From Ureaplasma parvum serovar 3 str. ATCC 27815 (GTDB lineage Bacteria > Bacillota_I > Bacilli_A > Mycoplasmatales > Mycoplasmoidaceae), in contig NC_010503.1 in NCBI RefSeq assembly GCF_000019345.1, positions 330,001-362,000 of the forward strand: 32,000 nucleotides of DNA, in the 5' to 3' direction. The notes below the pieces were generated by a model. The model was given only the letters and a program-made list of their open reading frames with translations. It was not told the origin of the DNA and did not search any database. Of this stretch, positions 1 through 7,683 are shown in pieces. The position numbers were made by a program, and so were the translations under genes. How positions within the stretch are numbered: position 1 is the first letter of the stretch; each line of letters starts with the position of its first letter.

Positions 1-3000
1 AACTCTTCAACAATTAAAAATATATTTAATTATGGTATTGTTAATTTAGTTTCTTCTAATACCACACCATTAAAAACCAGTCATTTTGATTTTAATGTTT
101 TATTAAAAAATTTAATTGCTGTTTTAGAGGAAAAAGATTGAACAACCAACCAAAAAACAAAATTAAAAAGCCTTTTAAGAATGAGTGTTGATGAATTATT
201 AAAAAATCCACAAACTCAAAATTTTGTTACTTCTATAGAAGATTTTATTGCTAATAAATTAGGCGATCTGGTAATTAGTGCAAATAATAGTTTACTAAAA
301 TCAAATATGTCTGATATTTGAAAACTAATCAAAGAAGTTGTTCATGACTTAATTCATAGTTCTGAATCATATGATCTAATATTTTCAATTATTAATGACT
401 TTATTGATCATCCACAAAATTATGATAATTTAAATAATATTAATGATTTATTACCATTAATTTTAAAATCTACAAATAAAGAACTTCAAGATAAGGTTGA
501 TATATTATTTAAAAAACTTATTAACAATGAAAATATACCAAATTTAGTAGGAACATTAACAACAAATTTAATTGTCAAAAACTTCTTTGTTAAAGAATTA
601 ACAGTAGATCAAAAACAAAAGATTAATAATTTTATCACTAATATTTTGCCAACAATACCTAATTTAACTTTATATAAAGAAATCCGAAAACAAGCTTTTG
701 AATTTTTAACAAACAATATTAATAAAATTTTAGTGGATCCTAAAAACACTTTATTAATATTAAATGATGGGATTAACAAATTATTATCAAACATATTGCC
801 ACAATTATCAACCCTGATTGAATTAATTGATAACGATAAAATTAAAGATCAAGATTTTATTGATGTTATTAAAATATTTATAGACAATTTAGATTTTAAT
901 AAATTATTTGTCAATATAAAGTCTAATAATAACCAAACAACAGATAGTACTACTTTAAATCAATTTTATTTTAAATTTAAATTAAATTTAGAACCTAAAA
1001 AATTAATTTTCGATTTAATAAAAAATCTTTTGAATTCACCAATTTTAAAAGTAAATGATAATAAAAATAATAAAATTAAGATTGAATCTAATAAAGCTAA
1101 AATTAAGTCTATTCTAACAACTAGTGTTACAAACATTTTTGAAAATTCTAATCTTATGAATTTTTTTAATAATCAATTATCACAATTATTTAGTTCAATT
1201 GATTTATTTAAAAATTTAAATTTATCAAATCAACAACGTTTAAACTTTGCTAAGGCTATTGTTGAATTATTAAATAAAGAAAAATTATTATCAAATTTAA
1301 TTAATGTTTTAATAACTAACTTAATTGATCACGCTGATGAATATGCTGAAGCAACAGATTTAGCAACAATTTTATCATTAACAATAAAATATAATCAAAA
1401 TGAATTAAAAAATGCGTTTGATAAATTATTAATAGGAACTTTAAAAAATGATAATCTTCAAGATTTAATTTTACGTATTTTTGTTAAATTAATTAATCCT
1501 AACAAGTCTTATGATTCAATTAGTGTAGTTTCAATTAATAAATTGAAAACATTTATATCAAAATTTGCTACAGGAATTAGTAAATTGGATTTATATCAAC
1601 AATTAAAAAATTCAATATTTACAGTTTTTTCTAACAAAACAAAAATGCAACAATTATTATCAAATGATGTGAGTGTAATAAATAAAACACTACTAGAAGC
1701 ATTTAACATTGACACACCAGAAAAAGTTTTGAAAATTAGTAGTTTATTAGATATTAATGAAATTGATGCTCGTGATTATGCTGATATTATTGAAATTATT
1801 TTAGTTGAAATTGGTTTTAATGTTACAAGTATTCAAAATAATGATGTTAATAATAATTTGAAAACAATTGATAAAAAAACAAATGATTTTGCTTTTCAAA
1901 TTTTGAAAAAAGCTTTAAATAATGGTGTTAGTGATCAACAATTACAAAAAATTAAAAATGTTGTTAATTATTTATTAGATGATATTGTTAAAATTCATGA
2001 TTCAAGTAGTTTTTTAAGAATTCAATTAGAACAATTATCACATGTTTTAGTTGATAAAATTACCGCAGTTTTACCTAAATCATTAACAATTAAACATAAA
2101 TATACAAAGATTTTTTCATCGATTTTAAATAATCAAGATTTTTTACAAAAAGCCAAAACTTTATTATCAACAATTTTAAATGAACTGATTGATCATAAAG
2201 ATAAATATAAAGACATTAATTCGTTTAGTGAATTAATCTCCGTATTCTTTAAAAATAAAGCTAGCGATCTAAAAACACAATTAAAAGATTTACTAAATAC
2301 AATTTTAAAAAACCAAACACTAATCACTAATATTGGACAAGTAATAATAGAATCATTTAAACTAGAAAACAAAATAAGTATTCTAGATAGTGATCTTGAA
2401 CAAAATACGATTTCATTTATTAATAAAATTTTTGCTCACATTACAGAATTGCCAATTTATACTAATTTAGTGGATAATTTTTTTAATTTTTTTAGTGAAT
2501 ATACAAAAAGTTCTGACACAAAAACATTGAATTTTAATAAATTTAAAAGTAGTTTATTCCAAGCTATCATACCTAAAATAAGTGATTTTGCATCTCTTTT
2601 AGACTTATTTAAATATAATGAAATTAGCGAACAAGAATGAAAAAGCGCAATTACATTCTTTATTGATTATTTGCCAATAAATAATTTAATAAACTCTAAA
2701 ATTTTGCCTACTAATTCTTTATTATTTGTTAGAAATATTTCAATTTCAAAAACAAAACCAGAATTAAATAAAATTGAAAACATCATTTTAGATTTATTTA
2801 AAGCATTATCACAAAAAGCTAAAACATTTGATAATAATACCTTAACTAAAGCAAAAAACATTATCGAATTTACTTTTAATAAGCTTTTAACATCAAATAA
2901 TATTAAAAATTTTATTAATAATCTATTATCAAATTTAAGTCCCATTAGATCTTTTTTGAAATCAATTAATGTTCAAGATAAAAAGCAAACACAACTTATT

Positions 3001-6000: not shown

Positions 6001-7683
6001 AGTTCAAACGCCATAAAAATTGTTGATCAAAACACTAATTTTGTAACTGTTATGCAAAATGATGTTATTTCATATTTAACATCTCCGCAACAAATTGCAA
6101 AATTACTTCAAATTGTTGATTTGGATAAAAATGATGACATTTTAAATTTCTTAAAAGTTATTTTATCTCATTTGCCTCAAAACGCATATACTATTTTATT
6201 TGGTAATAAAATTAATCTTATAACAAAGAACACAAATCAAAAAACTAATAGAAGTGTAATTCAAAAATATACAATATTAGATTATGTAAAAACTATTTTA
6301 AATTCTTCTTACTTAAAAAAACAAGATACAATTGTAAAAATTAAACATATTTTTAAAGATCTTTTAGTAACTATATCTAAATCATCACAATTAAATAATT
6401 ATATTGGTGAGTTGATTAGTAATACTTTCGCACAAAAACTTTCAAATCTTAGTGGTGTGGATAAACAATATAGTGAATCATTTTTAAAAGAATCATATAA
6501 ATTTATTATAAGTGATGAAAAATTAATCAAGATTATTGATGAAGTAGTTAATGATTTAGTTGATCATAAAGATGAATATTTAAAAGAAATTACAAACAAT
6601 AATCAACCATCAATTAATATTATTTTAAATATGTTAATTAAACGAAATGTTGATCAACAAAAAGTTGATTTTGTACCTTTTATAAAACGTTATTTAGTTA
6701 TTGATTCTTCAACACAATTTATGGCTCAATACCTTTTTAAAACTTTAAAATTAGAAAATACTAATGATCAAGATGTAAAAATTGTTCAAACATTTGTAAA
6801 AGAATTAATTAATCAAATTGATCAATTAGATTTTGTAAATTTATTCATTGATAAAATATTTACTTTAATAAAAGAAAATGGACTTGATTTATTTACAAAA
6901 GAAGAGGGTATAAAAAAAGTAAATGAAGCTATGAAAACGTTTGGTTTAACTGAAACAACTAATTTATTAAAAATTGCAAAACTTGTCGAACCAAATAAAA
7001 TTAAACCCCAAACCATAGGTGATCTAATTAATTTAGTATTTGAAAAATCACCATTAGCTGAAGATTTCGAAAGTATAACACAAGATAAAAATCCTTTATA
7101 TTATGGTTTAAAAAATCTTAAAGAAGATAGTTTAAATGCTGTTTTATTTGCTAGTGGCAAAAAGAAAATAGGAGAAGCAGCAAAAGTTAGTGAAATTAAT
7201 ATGTTAGATGCTATCCAACATTTAATTAATAAATTATGATCAGCTCGTGCAGAATACGCTAAAAATCATCCTAATTTAGAATATGAACAAGATAATCCAT
7301 ATATGCGTTCGCTAATTCATTTAGGAATTGTGATGCAATGATATGTTCATGAAACATATTTTAGAAATGTTTCAGGTGGGCTATGATGGACTGGTTCTGA
7401 TTCATTATCGGGTGAAGGACGTGTCTATTTATTGCTAAAAGCAGATATGGGATCTGAAAGTGAAAAACGAGTACGCTCAATGATTATGGGGAATCGTGGT
7501 GCAATGCTTTGAAATACACCAAAAGAGTGGAATTATAATAAAAATGATTTTTTATATATGATTACATATTGAAAATGAAGAACAAATTCACGTTTTAACG
7601 ATTCTAAAGAGAAAAATAAAGCAACTTATATTTTCAAAGCTTTAAAACGCGGTTATGGTGAAAAAGTTAAAACAATGAAATAA
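1..7683 (+). CDS. Giant modular repeat protein, 5'-truncated by the window edge (>2,560 codons); function unknown
   Basis: Frame 1 is open from nt 1 to TAA 7681-7683 when TGA is read as Trp. Track ORFs 646-2640, 2671-3750, 3757-4002 and 4945-7239 are all in frame 1. They are separated only by TGA codons (139, 319, 2638, 3748, 4000, 4279, 4372, 7237 and others). I read the uncovered stretches 1-645, 4003-4944 and 7240-7680 codon by codon and found no TAA/TAG. A hairpin plus T-run follows the stop. Confidence 0.85.
403..7236 (+). repeat. Eight tandem, diverged ~290-aa protein-level modules (period 861-921 nt) inside the giant CDS
   Basis: An anchor motif [IV]-[DL]-H-x-(D/N/Q)-(E/K)-Y starts at 403 (IDHPQNY), 1324 (IDHADEY), 2188 (IDHKDKY), 3922 (IDHQQQL), 4804 (ILHASEL), 5692 (IDHKNEY) and 6559 (VDHKDEY). 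A degenerate copy sits at 3061 (IEPILSN). A second motif (N/D)-E-I-x-x-x-(D/E)-(Y/W)-x3-I-x2-I recurs about 430 nt after each anchor, near 835, 1755, 2620, 3505, 4355, 5235, 6125 and 6985. From ~1755 on, modules alternate between a 'DY...GFN/DFN' type and an 'EW...P' type, giving a ~580-aa super-repeat. Confidence 0.8.
7237..7680 (+). other. Trp/Gly/Arg-rich C-terminal domain of the giant protein, distinct from the repeat region
   Basis: There are 8 Trp codons (6 TGA, 2 TGG) in the last 148 codons. I counted about 8 Trp in the preceding ~2,400 codons. The sequence is WSARAEYAKNHPNLEYEQDNPYMRSLIHLGIVMQWYVHETYFRNVSGGLWWTGSDS...GNRGAMLWNTPKEWNYNKNDFLYMITYWKWRTNSRF... Confidence 0.7.

What the first reader, a model, noticed from the sequence alone, without database searches (positions are those of the whole stretch)
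1..7683. Giant (>2,560 aa) protein built from eight tandem, diverged ~290-aa modules with an alternating A/B pattern
**Shown by the sequence.** One uninterrupted table-4 reading frame spans 7.7 kb and continues past the 5' window edge. An I/V-D-H-x-D/N-E/K-Y anchor recurs at 403, 1324, 2188, (3061, degenerate), 3922, 4804, 5692 and 6559, a spacing of 861-921 nt. A second motif, N-E-I-x3-(D/E)-(Y/W)-x3-I-x2-I, and a third, F-K-L-E-N-(L)-T-x-(E/D)-D, keep phase with it. Three longer blocks are mutually alignable for ~100 aa with a ~1,750-nt period, implying a two-module super-repeat. They are YDSISVVSINKLKTFISKF... at ~1510, YDSINNSAINKIKILITKL... at ~3260 and YDQIQQINKDKVVTFIKKL... at ~4990. 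The composition is almost purely L/I/N/K/D/E/Q/T/S/F with nearly no Gly, Pro or Cys.

**Inference.** This composition fits an all-helical rod or solenoid. The modules are too diverged for recent duplication, so the periodicity appears to be under selection. I do not recognise the module as any named family. A protein that takes about 1% of a minimal genome's coding capacity is likely to have an important structural role (scaffold, surface fibre or cytoskeletal ruler).
Basis: partly seen in the sequence, partly recalled or inferred. Interest (0 to 1): 0.72.

Follow-up and report, generated by a model that had tools for sequence, protein, structure and literature searches.

The report
Ureaplasma giant MilA-type surface lipase
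The 7.7-kb reading frame is the back three-quarters of Ureaplasma parvum's 3,388-residue membrane-anchored lipase, a relative of the Mycoplasma bovis lipase MilA. Its long tail is a chain of nine ancient all-helical modules with no solved structural relative, so it is real and conserved but belongs to a known family.

Summary
Window 1-7683 (+) is one table-4 reading frame of 2,560 codons with 13 in-frame TGA codons. It carries a highly significant ~290-aa repeat with an A/B alternation that gives a ~580-aa super-repeat.

The window is Ureaplasma parvum. The complete protein is 3,388 aa. Its parts, in order, are:
- an N-terminal membrane anchor;
- a GDSL/SGNH lipase domain and a conserved ~250-aa domain, both upstream of the window;
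- nine helical modules, the ninth truncated;
- a Trp-rich C-terminal domain.

It is a member of the MilA family of giant Mollicutes lipases. M. bovis MilA is a surface-exposed, apparently essential lipase that binds lipid and heparin.

Family members carry about 1 to 18 modules between two constant ends. The terminal unit (M9 plus C-terminal domain) is present in every full-length member and is the most constrained part (dN/dS 0.06-0.10).

AlphaFold models are confident and all-helical. Foldseek finds no relative in the PDB. Pfam and NCBIfam have no model for the module; MilA's own modules only graze DUF445.

Length is fixed within species, there is no DNA-level repeat, and selection is purifying. 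This argues against a pseudogene or a size-variable antigen.

A cytoskeletal role is very unlikely. A surface lipid-scavenging enzyme with a helical stalk is the best reading.

The parts
1..7683 (+). 3' 75% of the gene for the 3,388-aa MilA-family GDSL lipase of Ureaplasma parvum (window aa n = protein aa n+828). The stop codon is at 7681-7683. The first 828 codons (TM anchor, GDSL domain, conserved post-catalytic domain and the start of M1) lie upstream of the window.
   Evidence: Table-4 ORF. It matches P0001 with 4 aa differences in 2,560. The DNA differs at 8 of 7,683 nt from Logan contig L001. The cluster contains many 3,388-aa U. parvum entries.
1..348 (+). Module M1 (class A), C-terminal 116 residues only; the rest is upstream of the window.
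   Evidence: jackhmmer domain at P0001 653-944; coordinates converted.
340..1284 (+). Module M2 (class B).
   Evidence: P0001 942-1256, E 2.7e-52; class.
1258..2163 (+). Module M3 (class A); anchor LIDHADEY at nt 1324.
   Evidence: P0001 1248-1549, E 1.1e-79.
2149..3015 (+). Module M4 (class B); anchor LIDHKDKY at nt 2188.
   Evidence: P0001 1545-1833, E 6.8e-57.
3007..3900 (+). Module M5 (class A); degenerate anchor.
   Evidence: P0001 1831-2128, E 1.1e-95; 113-129 bits to M3 and M7.
3886..4743 (+). Module M6 (class B); anchor IIDHQQQL at nt 3922.
   Evidence: P0001 2124-2409, E 1.4e-49.
4738..5670 (+). Module M7 (class A). First half of the modelled two-module unit.
   Evidence: P0001 2408-2718, E 2.2e-85. 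AF2 model of M7+M8: pLDDT 84.2, pTM 0.73, all-helical, with an unstructured loop at model residues 195-214.
5650..6459 (+). Module M8 (class B); anchor LIDHKNEY at nt 5692. Second half of the modelled unit.
   Evidence: P0001 2712-2981, E 1.4e-51; AF2 model.
6499..7092 (+). Module M9, a truncated ~200-aa terminal copy; anchor LVDHKDEY at nt 6559. It forms one folded unit with the C-terminal domain.
   Evidence: P0001 2995-3192, matching profile positions 3-201. dN/dS 0.096. AF2 model of M9+CTD: pLDDT 84.9, pTM 0.84.
7093..7680 (+). Trp/Tyr-rich C-terminal domain (196 aa). Family-wide motifs are NPxYKAxxR, LW..E, FWN, G.R, NY..D..L..IYY and K.G. It holds 6 of the 13 TGA-Trp codons.
   Evidence: Together with M9 it is found at the extreme C-terminus of every full-length family member, including M. 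bovis MilA 2252-2662. Alignment A5. It has the lowest dN/dS in the protein, 0.058. TGA positions.

Best explanation
The frame encodes the extracellular stalk and tip of the Ureaplasma parvum member of the MilA family. This is a 389-kDa protein held in the cell membrane by one N-terminal helix. A GDSL/SGNH lipase domain sits next to the membrane. Beyond it lies a rigid all-helical array of nine ~290-aa modules in A/B pairs. The array ends in a strongly conserved terminal unit made of the truncated ninth module and a Trp-rich domain.

Shown here:
- the domain architecture;
- homology to MilA;
- the helical fold prediction;
- the varying number of internal modules between two constant ends across Mollicutes;
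- purifying selection, strongest on the two ends.

Inferred, from what reviews report for M. bovis MilA (lipase activity; binding of a hydrophobic dye, lipids and heparin; surface exposure; apparent essentiality):
- the enzyme releases fatty acids from host lipids for a bacterium that cannot make its own;
- the helical modules bind or pass on the hydrophobic products and set the reach of the molecule;
- the conserved tip makes the decisive contact, with a host or bacterial membrane or with a partner.
For: Architecture.
- One TM-like segment at aa 5-27 after a Lys-rich start, and none elsewhere.
- Pfam Lipase_GDSL at aa 90-390 scores 65.7 bits against a cut-off of 23.6. GDS is at 94-96 and GxND at 239-242.

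Membership of the MilA family.
- BLASTP against M. bovis MilA gives 26% identity over 797 columns, E 9e-47. A colinear weak match covers the terminal unit.
- A search from M. maculosa P0035 returns both 'multifunctional lipase MilA' entries and P0001.
- An iterated module profile, with E-values scaled to 1.8e9 sequences, finds seven modules in MilA, E down to 5e-40.
- The terminal unit is found at the C-terminus of all full-length members.

Family breadth. An exhaustive profile search gave 73 representatives. The 20 whose clusters were looked up are Mollicutes proteins or unnamed, most named SGNH/GDSL hydrolase. They carry about 1 to 18 modules between the constant ends.

Fold. AF2 gave pLDDT 84.2 and pTM 0.73 for two modules, and pLDDT 84.9 and pTM 0.84 for the terminal unit. 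Both are all-helical.

Selection. dN/dS is 0.20 overall, 0.127 for GDSL, 0.21-0.31 for modules, 0.096 for M9 and 0.058 for the CTD.

Stability. Length is fixed at 3,388 aa in complete U. parvum entries and 3,376 aa in nearly all U. urealyticum entries, one being 3,369 aa. There is no DNA-level repeat.

Function of MilA from reviews. It has lipase activity, binds ANS, lipids, heparin and ATP, and is trypsin-accessible. Antibodies to its C-terminus inhibit growth and no transposon mutants have been recovered (PMC9630594; PMC9051441; PMC7954426).
Against: - No activity of the Ureaplasma protein has been measured.
- The functional inference crosses about 26% identity and rests on reviews. The primary MilA paper could not be read.
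- I had no model coordinates, so a lipid-binding groove or cavity in the modules was not examined.
- Block V of the GDSL domain reads D-I-H, not the canonical D-x-x-H, in both this protein and MilA.
- Heparin-binding consensus motifs are not enriched over shuffles, and no Walker A motif exists in either protein. The sequence therefore does not explain two of MilA's reported activities.
- No conserved operon partner points to a lipid pathway.
Confidence: 0.6

Rival explanations
1. The helical array is chiefly a passive spacer. Module number sets how far the conserved terminal unit is held from the bacterial membrane, and the modules have no ligand of their own.
For: - Module number varies from about 1 to 18 between constant N- and C-terminal parts.
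- Modules are the least constrained part (dN/dS 0.21-0.31, against 0.06-0.13 for the ends).
- pTM of 0.73 for two modules suggests a rigid junction.
- The consensus of the 26-module alignment keeps mainly Leu, Ile and Phe plus a few Asn and Lys, and no column is invariant.
Against: - Reviews report that the large MilA fragment binds a hydrophobic dye and several lipids.
- The A/B alternation is conserved in register in several Ureaplasma proteins. A mere spacer would not need this.
- This reading overlaps with the best explanation rather than excluding it.
Confidence: 0.25
2. It is mainly an adhesin: a long surface fibre that binds host glycosaminoglycans or extracellular matrix, with the lipase domain secondary.
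For: MilA binds heparin and is listed among M. bovis adhesins (PMC9630594). The protein is predicted to be extracellular and very elongated.
Against: - Cardin-Weintraub motifs are at or below shuffle expectation in both proteins.
- The review itself notes that no adhesion or adhesion-inhibition assay has been done for MilA.
- Net charge is close to neutral (413 K+R against 384 D+E).
- The catalytic domain is well conserved (dN/dS 0.127).
Confidence: 0.1
3. It is an intracellular cytoskeletal ruler or scaffold.
For: Its size, helical composition and regular periodicity resemble eukaryotic ruler proteins.
Against: - The N-terminal signal anchor follows a Lys-rich cytoplasmic start, which predicts the bulk of the protein outside the cell.
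- It is fused to a secreted-type GDSL lipase.
- The homologue MilA is trypsin-accessible and partly released into the medium.
Confidence: 0.03
4. It is a size- or phase-variable surface antigen or immune decoy, like the Ureaplasma multiple-banded antigen, or else a decaying pseudogene.
For: It is a large, exposed, repetitive protein. MilA is strongly immunogenic and is used for serodiagnosis. One N/Q/S-rich unstructured loop per module is predicted.
Against: - Length is identical in all complete U. parvum entries and in nearly all U. urealyticum entries.
- There are no DNA-level tandem or long direct repeats to drive slippage or recombination.
- dN/dS is 0.2 with an intact frame in several species.
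- TGA codons fall at Trp positions that are also Trp in the U. urealyticum ortholog (sequences).
Confidence: 0.03

Closest known systems
MilA (Mycoplasma immunogenic lipase A / 'multifunctional lipase MilA') of Mycoplasmopsis bovis and M. agalactiae, about 2,670 aa
   Same: - The order of parts is the same: N-terminal TM helix, GDSL lipase, conserved post-catalytic domain, array of the same helical modules, and the same ~400-aa terminal unit.
- Both have the F-D-I-H-P variant of GDSL block V.
- Both are the products of stand-alone genes.
   Different: - Identity is only about 26%, and direct alignment works only over the N-terminal 760 aa.
- U. parvum has nine modules in a clear A/B super-repeat, against seven detected in MilA.
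- MilA's modules graze Pfam DUF445 (36.2 bits against a cut-off of 33.8) while the Ureaplasma modules do not.
- All biochemistry was done on MilA and none on the Ureaplasma protein.
Pfam DUF445 (PF04286), an uncharacterised ~370-aa family
   Same: MilA-clade modules match profile positions ~60-340 in three to four stretches per protein. This is about the length of one module.
   Different: No Ureaplasma module or full protein reaches even E = 1, or E = 10 for single modules. The relationship, if real, is remote. It was not tested by profile-profile or fold comparison.
Small SGNH/GDSL lipases and phospholipases of bacteria; within Mollicutes, the M. hyopneumoniae P65 lipoprotein
   Same: They share the catalytic domain family, and both kinds are surface or secreted lipolytic enzymes of lipid-auxotrophic pathogens.
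   Different: Those enzymes are single-domain or lipoprotein-anchored and are a few hundred residues long. None of them carries the ~2,700-aa helical array and terminal unit.
Alpha-solenoid repeat proteins (HEAT/ARM: exportins, CTNNBL1, APC/C subunits)
   Same: They are all-helical, elongated and repetitive, and they are the top (non-significant) Foldseek hits.
   Different: Here the repeat unit is ~290 aa with about 16 helices, not a 40-aa helical hairpin. TM-scores are only 0.07-0.22 and E is at least 0.36, so there is no evidence of shared ancestry or fold.

Membership tests
MilA family (giant GDSL lipases of Mollicutes) | Significant sequence similarity to M. bovis / M. agalactiae MilA | tested here: met
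   BLASTP of P0001 against P0103 gives E 9e-47 and 26% identity over 797 columns. P0001 and the MilA entries are both retrieved by M. maculosa P0035.
MilA family (giant GDSL lipases of Mollicutes) | Single N-terminal transmembrane or signal-anchor helix | tested here: met
   Kyte-Doolittle window at aa 5-23 scores 1.83 and no other segment passes. MilA is listed with a TM helix at 7-29 (PMC9630594). This part lies upstream of the window.
MilA family (giant GDSL lipases of Mollicutes) | N-terminal GDSL/SGNH hydrolase domain | tested here: met
   PF00657 scores 65.7 bits (cut-off 23.6) at aa 90-390 and PF13472 scores 45.2 bits. This part lies upstream of the window.
MilA family (giant GDSL lipases of Mollicutes) | Array of the shared ~290-aa helical modules | tested here: met
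   There are nine modules in P0001. The same iterated profile finds seven in MilA at library-scale E-values. A profile built from Ureaplasma modules alone hits MilA only weakly.
MilA family (giant GDSL lipases of Mollicutes) | Conserved ~400-aa C-terminal unit | tested here: met
   jackhmmer from P0001 2995-3388 covers the C-terminus of every full-length member, including MilA 2252-2662. Alignment A5 shows the shared motifs.
MilA family (giant GDSL lipases of Mollicutes) | Lipase activity; binding of lipid, ANS, heparin and ATP; surface exposure; processing into ~226 and ~50 kDa fragments | not testable with these tools
   Known only for M. bovis MilA, from reviews.
SGNH/GDSL hydrolases | Catalytic blocks I (GDS), III (GxND) and V (DxxH) | tested here: inconclusive
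   Block I (GDS, 94-96) and block III (GANDF, 239-243) are present. Block V reads FDIHP, with Asp two residues before His, in both P0001 and MilA. MilA is nevertheless reported to be active.
Pfam DUF445 (PF04286) | Match at or above the gathering score | tested here: not met
   There is no DUF445 hit for the window protein, for P0001/P0003/P0004, or for 26 single modules. MilA-cluster P0105 scores 36.2 bits against 33.8, and P0031 and P0063 fall below the cut-off.
HEAT/ARM-type alpha-solenoids | Significant fold similarity to solved solenoids | tested here: not met
Type V autotransporters (reviews call MilA a likely 'autotransporter') | C-terminal beta-barrel translocator | tested here: not met
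   The terminal 394 aa are predicted helical, apart from a few isolated bridge residues, with pLDDT 84.9. Established knowledge: Mollicutes have no outer membrane.
Size-variable repeat antigens (e.g. Ureaplasma MBA) | Near-identical DNA tandem repeats and length variation between strains | tested here: not met
   TRF finds only a 44-nt low-score array and direct repeats are at most 53 nt. Complete U. parvum entries are all 3,388 aa.

The most novel reading that the evidence does not exclude
This protein, with its tandem paralog in U. urealyticum, is the long-sought membrane-bound phospholipase A of human ureaplasmas. PLA1/PLA2 activity in Ureaplasma membranes was reported from 1986 to 1999 and has been linked to prostaglandin release and preterm labour. 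Genome studies found no gene for it (PMC3511179). In addition, the ~290-aa modules would represent a new helical lipid-binding or lipid-conducting fold that ferries acyl chains between the host and the bacterial membrane.
Probability: 0.25. Interest if true: 0.7.

Novelty: new member of a known kind. Interest (0 to 1): 0.42.

Why it matters
Ureaplasma parvum is a leading agent of chorioamnionitis and preterm birth, and it must take its lipids from the host. Its largest gene takes about 1.35% of the genome. That gene encodes a homologue of a surface lipase that appears to be essential in M. bovis and is an established diagnostic antigen there. I found no paper that discusses the Ureaplasma protein.

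The gene gives a concrete, testable candidate for the phospholipase A activity whose gene was never identified. It also offers a conserved extracellular tip, the most constrained part of the protein, as a possible antibody target.

For the family as a whole, this analysis defines three features that the reviews I could read describe only as 'copies of DUF445':
- the module itself;
- the A/B super-repeat;
- the rule of a variable module count between two constant ends.

It also shows that neither the module nor the tip has a solved structural relative.

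Tried and rejected
- Pfam and NCBIfam on the window protein, the full protein and 26 single modules gave nothing for the repeat.
- Profile searches of PDB sequences gave only weak or compositional hits: NRD1 for the module, designed helical repeats for the terminal unit.
- Foldseek against the PDB for both models gave no significant match.
- A profile self-comparison of the module looking for shorter sub-repeats gave only weak off-diagonal signal (probability at most 16%). The ~290-aa unit is therefore the repeat.
- Heparin-binding consensus motifs and Walker A were not enriched or were absent.
- No operon partner is conserved across genera. Only a divergent glutathione-peroxidase gene is shared within Ureaplasma.
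- The primary MilA papers (PMC7240078, PMC3910936) are not held.
Exact substrings of P0001 were used instead; the modelled regions are identical to the window.
- No terminator-like site follows the stop codon.

Full report
**Identity of the window.** The window has about 20% G+C outside an rRNA operon. It reads properly only with translation table 4. It carries a bacterial rRNA operon, five tRNA genes and a class B RNase P RNA. The giant protein matches a cluster of 3,388-aa Ureaplasma parvum entries with 4 differences in 2,560 residues. One of these is ACA32748.1 of serovar 3 ATCC 27815. The window is therefore U. parvum.

**The observation.**
- Bases 1-7680 are one open table-4 frame of 2,560 codons, with 13 TGA codons and no TAA or TAG.
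- Self-BLAST of 300-aa tiles gives a ~580-aa offset at 27-33% identity (E to 2e-42). A ~290-310-aa offset scores about 25% identity (E about 1e-8 to 1e-10).
- A profile seeded on one module finds nine contiguous copies in the full protein, E 1e-40 to 1e-95.
- The pairwise matrix separates odd (A) from even (B) modules.
- A two-module query hits only in register.
- At the DNA level nothing repeats beyond a 30-nt stretch at the anchor.

Two corrections apply: there are nine modules, the ninth truncated, and the array is followed by a distinct C-terminal domain.

The frame continues 828 codons upstream. The full protein starts with MDKKSKKILG followed by its only hydrophobic helix, aa 5-27. There is no lipobox cysteine (sequence). 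Next comes a GDSL lipase domain at aa 90-390, with PF00657 at 65.7 bits against a cut-off of 23.6. Blocks GDS and GxND are present. A conserved ~250-aa domain follows at aa 400-652. The modules M1-M9 occupy aa 653-3192, and a Trp-rich domain occupies aa 3193-3388. The Lys-rich start ahead of the helix predicts that everything after the helix lies outside the cell.

**Family.** An exhaustive profile search with Ureaplasma modules found 73 representatives among 1.84 billion proteins. Nearly all are 1.8-4.8 kaa long. The 20 whose clusters I looked up are named SGNH/GDSL hydrolase or hypothetical protein, or carry no name. The named ones come from Ureaplasma, Mycoplasmopsis, Metamycoplasma and unclassified Mycoplasma.

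A search from the M. maculosa member returned entries named 'multifunctional lipase MilA' from M. agalactiae and M. bovis. It also returned members from M. hyopneumoniae, M. ovipneumoniae, M. hyorhinis, M. synoviae, M. fermentans and others, and P0001 itself.

Three further results tie the Ureaplasma protein to MilA:
- Direct BLASTP of P0001 against M. bovis MilA gives 26% identity over 797 columns, E 9e-47.
- The module profile, iterated with E-values scaled to 1.8e9 sequences, finds seven modules in MilA.
- The terminal unit (M9 plus C-terminal domain) is found at the very C-terminus of every full-length member.

Mapping the parts locally shows a common plan: anchor, lipase, post-catalytic domain, then about 1 to 18 modules, then the terminal unit. 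Members closest to Ureaplasma include a 954-aa protein with one module, a 1,344-aa protein with three, and ~2,200-aa proteins with five.

**Known models.** Pfam and NCBIfam have nothing for the Ureaplasma modules. MilA-clade proteins match DUF445 marginally, in three or four stretches each about one module long. P0105 scores 36.2 bits against 33.8, and two others fall below the cut-off. This is presumably the 'multiple copies of DUF445' noted for MilA (PMC9630594).

**Structure.**
- AlphaFold2 on M7+M8 with 24 aligned two-module units gave pLDDT 84.2 and pTM 0.73. The model is entirely helical, with about 16 helices per module and one unstructured loop per module.
- The terminal unit, with 22 diverse sequences, gave pLDDT 84.9 and pTM 0.84. 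It is helical, and M9 and the C-terminal domain form one body.
- Foldseek against the PDB found nothing significant for either model. The best E was 0.36 and TM-scores were 0.07-0.22, mostly generic HEAT/ARM solenoids.

**Selection and stability.** Against the U. urealyticum ortholog (80% aa identity) dN/dS is 0.20 overall. By region it is 0.127 for the lipase, 0.093 for the post-catalytic domain, 0.21-0.31 for M1-M8, 0.096 for M9 and 0.058 for the C-terminal domain. Complete entries are 3,388 aa in U. parvum and 3,376 aa in U. urealyticum, apart from one 3,369-aa entry. This excludes a pseudogene. It also argues against a size-variable antigen.

**Mechanism.**
- Shown: a membrane-anchored, outward-facing GDSL enzyme carrying a long, probably rigid helical array and a highly constrained tip.
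- Taken from reviews of MilA: it has lipase activity and binds ANS, several lipids, heparin and ATP. It is exposed on the surface and partly released. Antibodies to the C-terminus inhibit growth, and no transposon mutants have been recovered.
- Inferred: the Ureaplasma protein scavenges host lipids. Its modules bind or hand on hydrophobic products and set the reach of the molecule. The terminal unit makes the critical contact.

Several points weaken this reading:
- Block V of the lipase reads D-I-H rather than D-x-x-H, although MilA shares this and is reported active.
- Heparin motifs are not enriched, and there is no Walker A motif in either protein.
- No conserved neighbour gene points to a pathway.
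- I could not inspect model coordinates for a groove or cavity.

**Rivals.** A passive spacer role for the modules is compatible with their weaker constraint and variable number, and it is not exclusive of the best explanation. An adhesin role rests only on MilA's heparin binding. A cytoskeletal ruler is contradicted by topology and by MilA's surface location. The 'autotransporter' label used in some reviews is not supported, because the C-terminus is helical and Mollicutes have no outer membrane.

**A link worth testing.** Phospholipase A1/A2 activity was reported in Ureaplasma membranes. The 19-genome comparison found no gene for it, and that paper contains neither 'lipase' nor 'esterase' (PMC3511179). 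The U. diversum genome paper repeats the gap (PMC5015763). From general knowledge, several bacterial SGNH/GDSL enzymes are phospholipases A or lysophospholipases. A membrane-anchored GDSL enzyme is therefore a reasonable candidate. This is inference only.

**Verdict.** It is not an orphan. It is the U. parvum member of the MilA family, so I rate it a new member of a known kind. The module definition, the A/B super-repeat, the constant-ends and variable-middle plan, the strongly constrained terminal unit and the absence of any solved structural relative go beyond the reviews I could read. They leave a moderate chance of something more interesting.

Noticed in passing
L002 1-9742 and 10001-20131 (U. 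urealyticum serovar 13); compare L001 8594-9664 (U. parvum): U. urealyticum carries a second, tandem copy of the giant lipase gene directly upstream of the ortholog on the same strand (3,332 aa, 45% identity, same nine-module plan). At that position U. parvum has TetR-like and glutathione-peroxidase genes, and the protein search found no paralog.
   Followed up: partly
L001 9191-9664 (-), upstream of the window; L003 517-993 (-): A glutathione-peroxidase gene lies divergently just upstream of the giant gene in U. parvum and in a U. diversum-like contig. It is the only neighbour shared across Ureaplasma species. A link to lipid peroxide handling is conceivable but untested.
   Followed up: no
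window 7838-8677 (+): A 279-aa ORF lies 155 nt downstream. It has a lipoprotein-type signal (…ILASSC) and no Pfam hit on record. It is conserved at the same position in U. urealyticum (L002 20285-21124). No terminator-like site lies between it and the giant gene.
   Followed up: partly
protein aa ~374-378, upstream of the window (alignment): GDSL block V reads F-D-I-H-P in both the U. parvum protein and M. bovis MilA. The Asp sits two residues before the His instead of in the canonical D-x-x-H spacing.
   Followed up: no
window ~3343-7683 (protein aa 1942-3388): The original U. parvum ATCC 700970 record lists a 1,447-aa 'unique hypothetical' protein (AAF30702.1). It sits in the same 90% cluster and ends with the same terminal unit. 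The first genome annotation therefore split this gene.
   Followed up: partly
protein aa 400-652, upstream of the window: The conserved domain between the lipase and M1 gives secondary profile hits inside the module arrays of other family members. It may be a degenerate 'module 0'.
   Followed up: no
window 13964-18851, 19513-20041, 25569-25931: A complete 16S-23S-5S operon, a cluster of five tRNA genes (Tyr, Gln, Lys, Leu, Gly) and a class B RNase P RNA. All are ordinary.
   Followed up: yes
window 423-6281 (-): Seven table-4 ORFs of 157-248 codons lie on the opposite strand inside the giant gene. They are most likely an effect of the A+T-rich, stop-poor antisense frame rather than genes.
   Followed up: no
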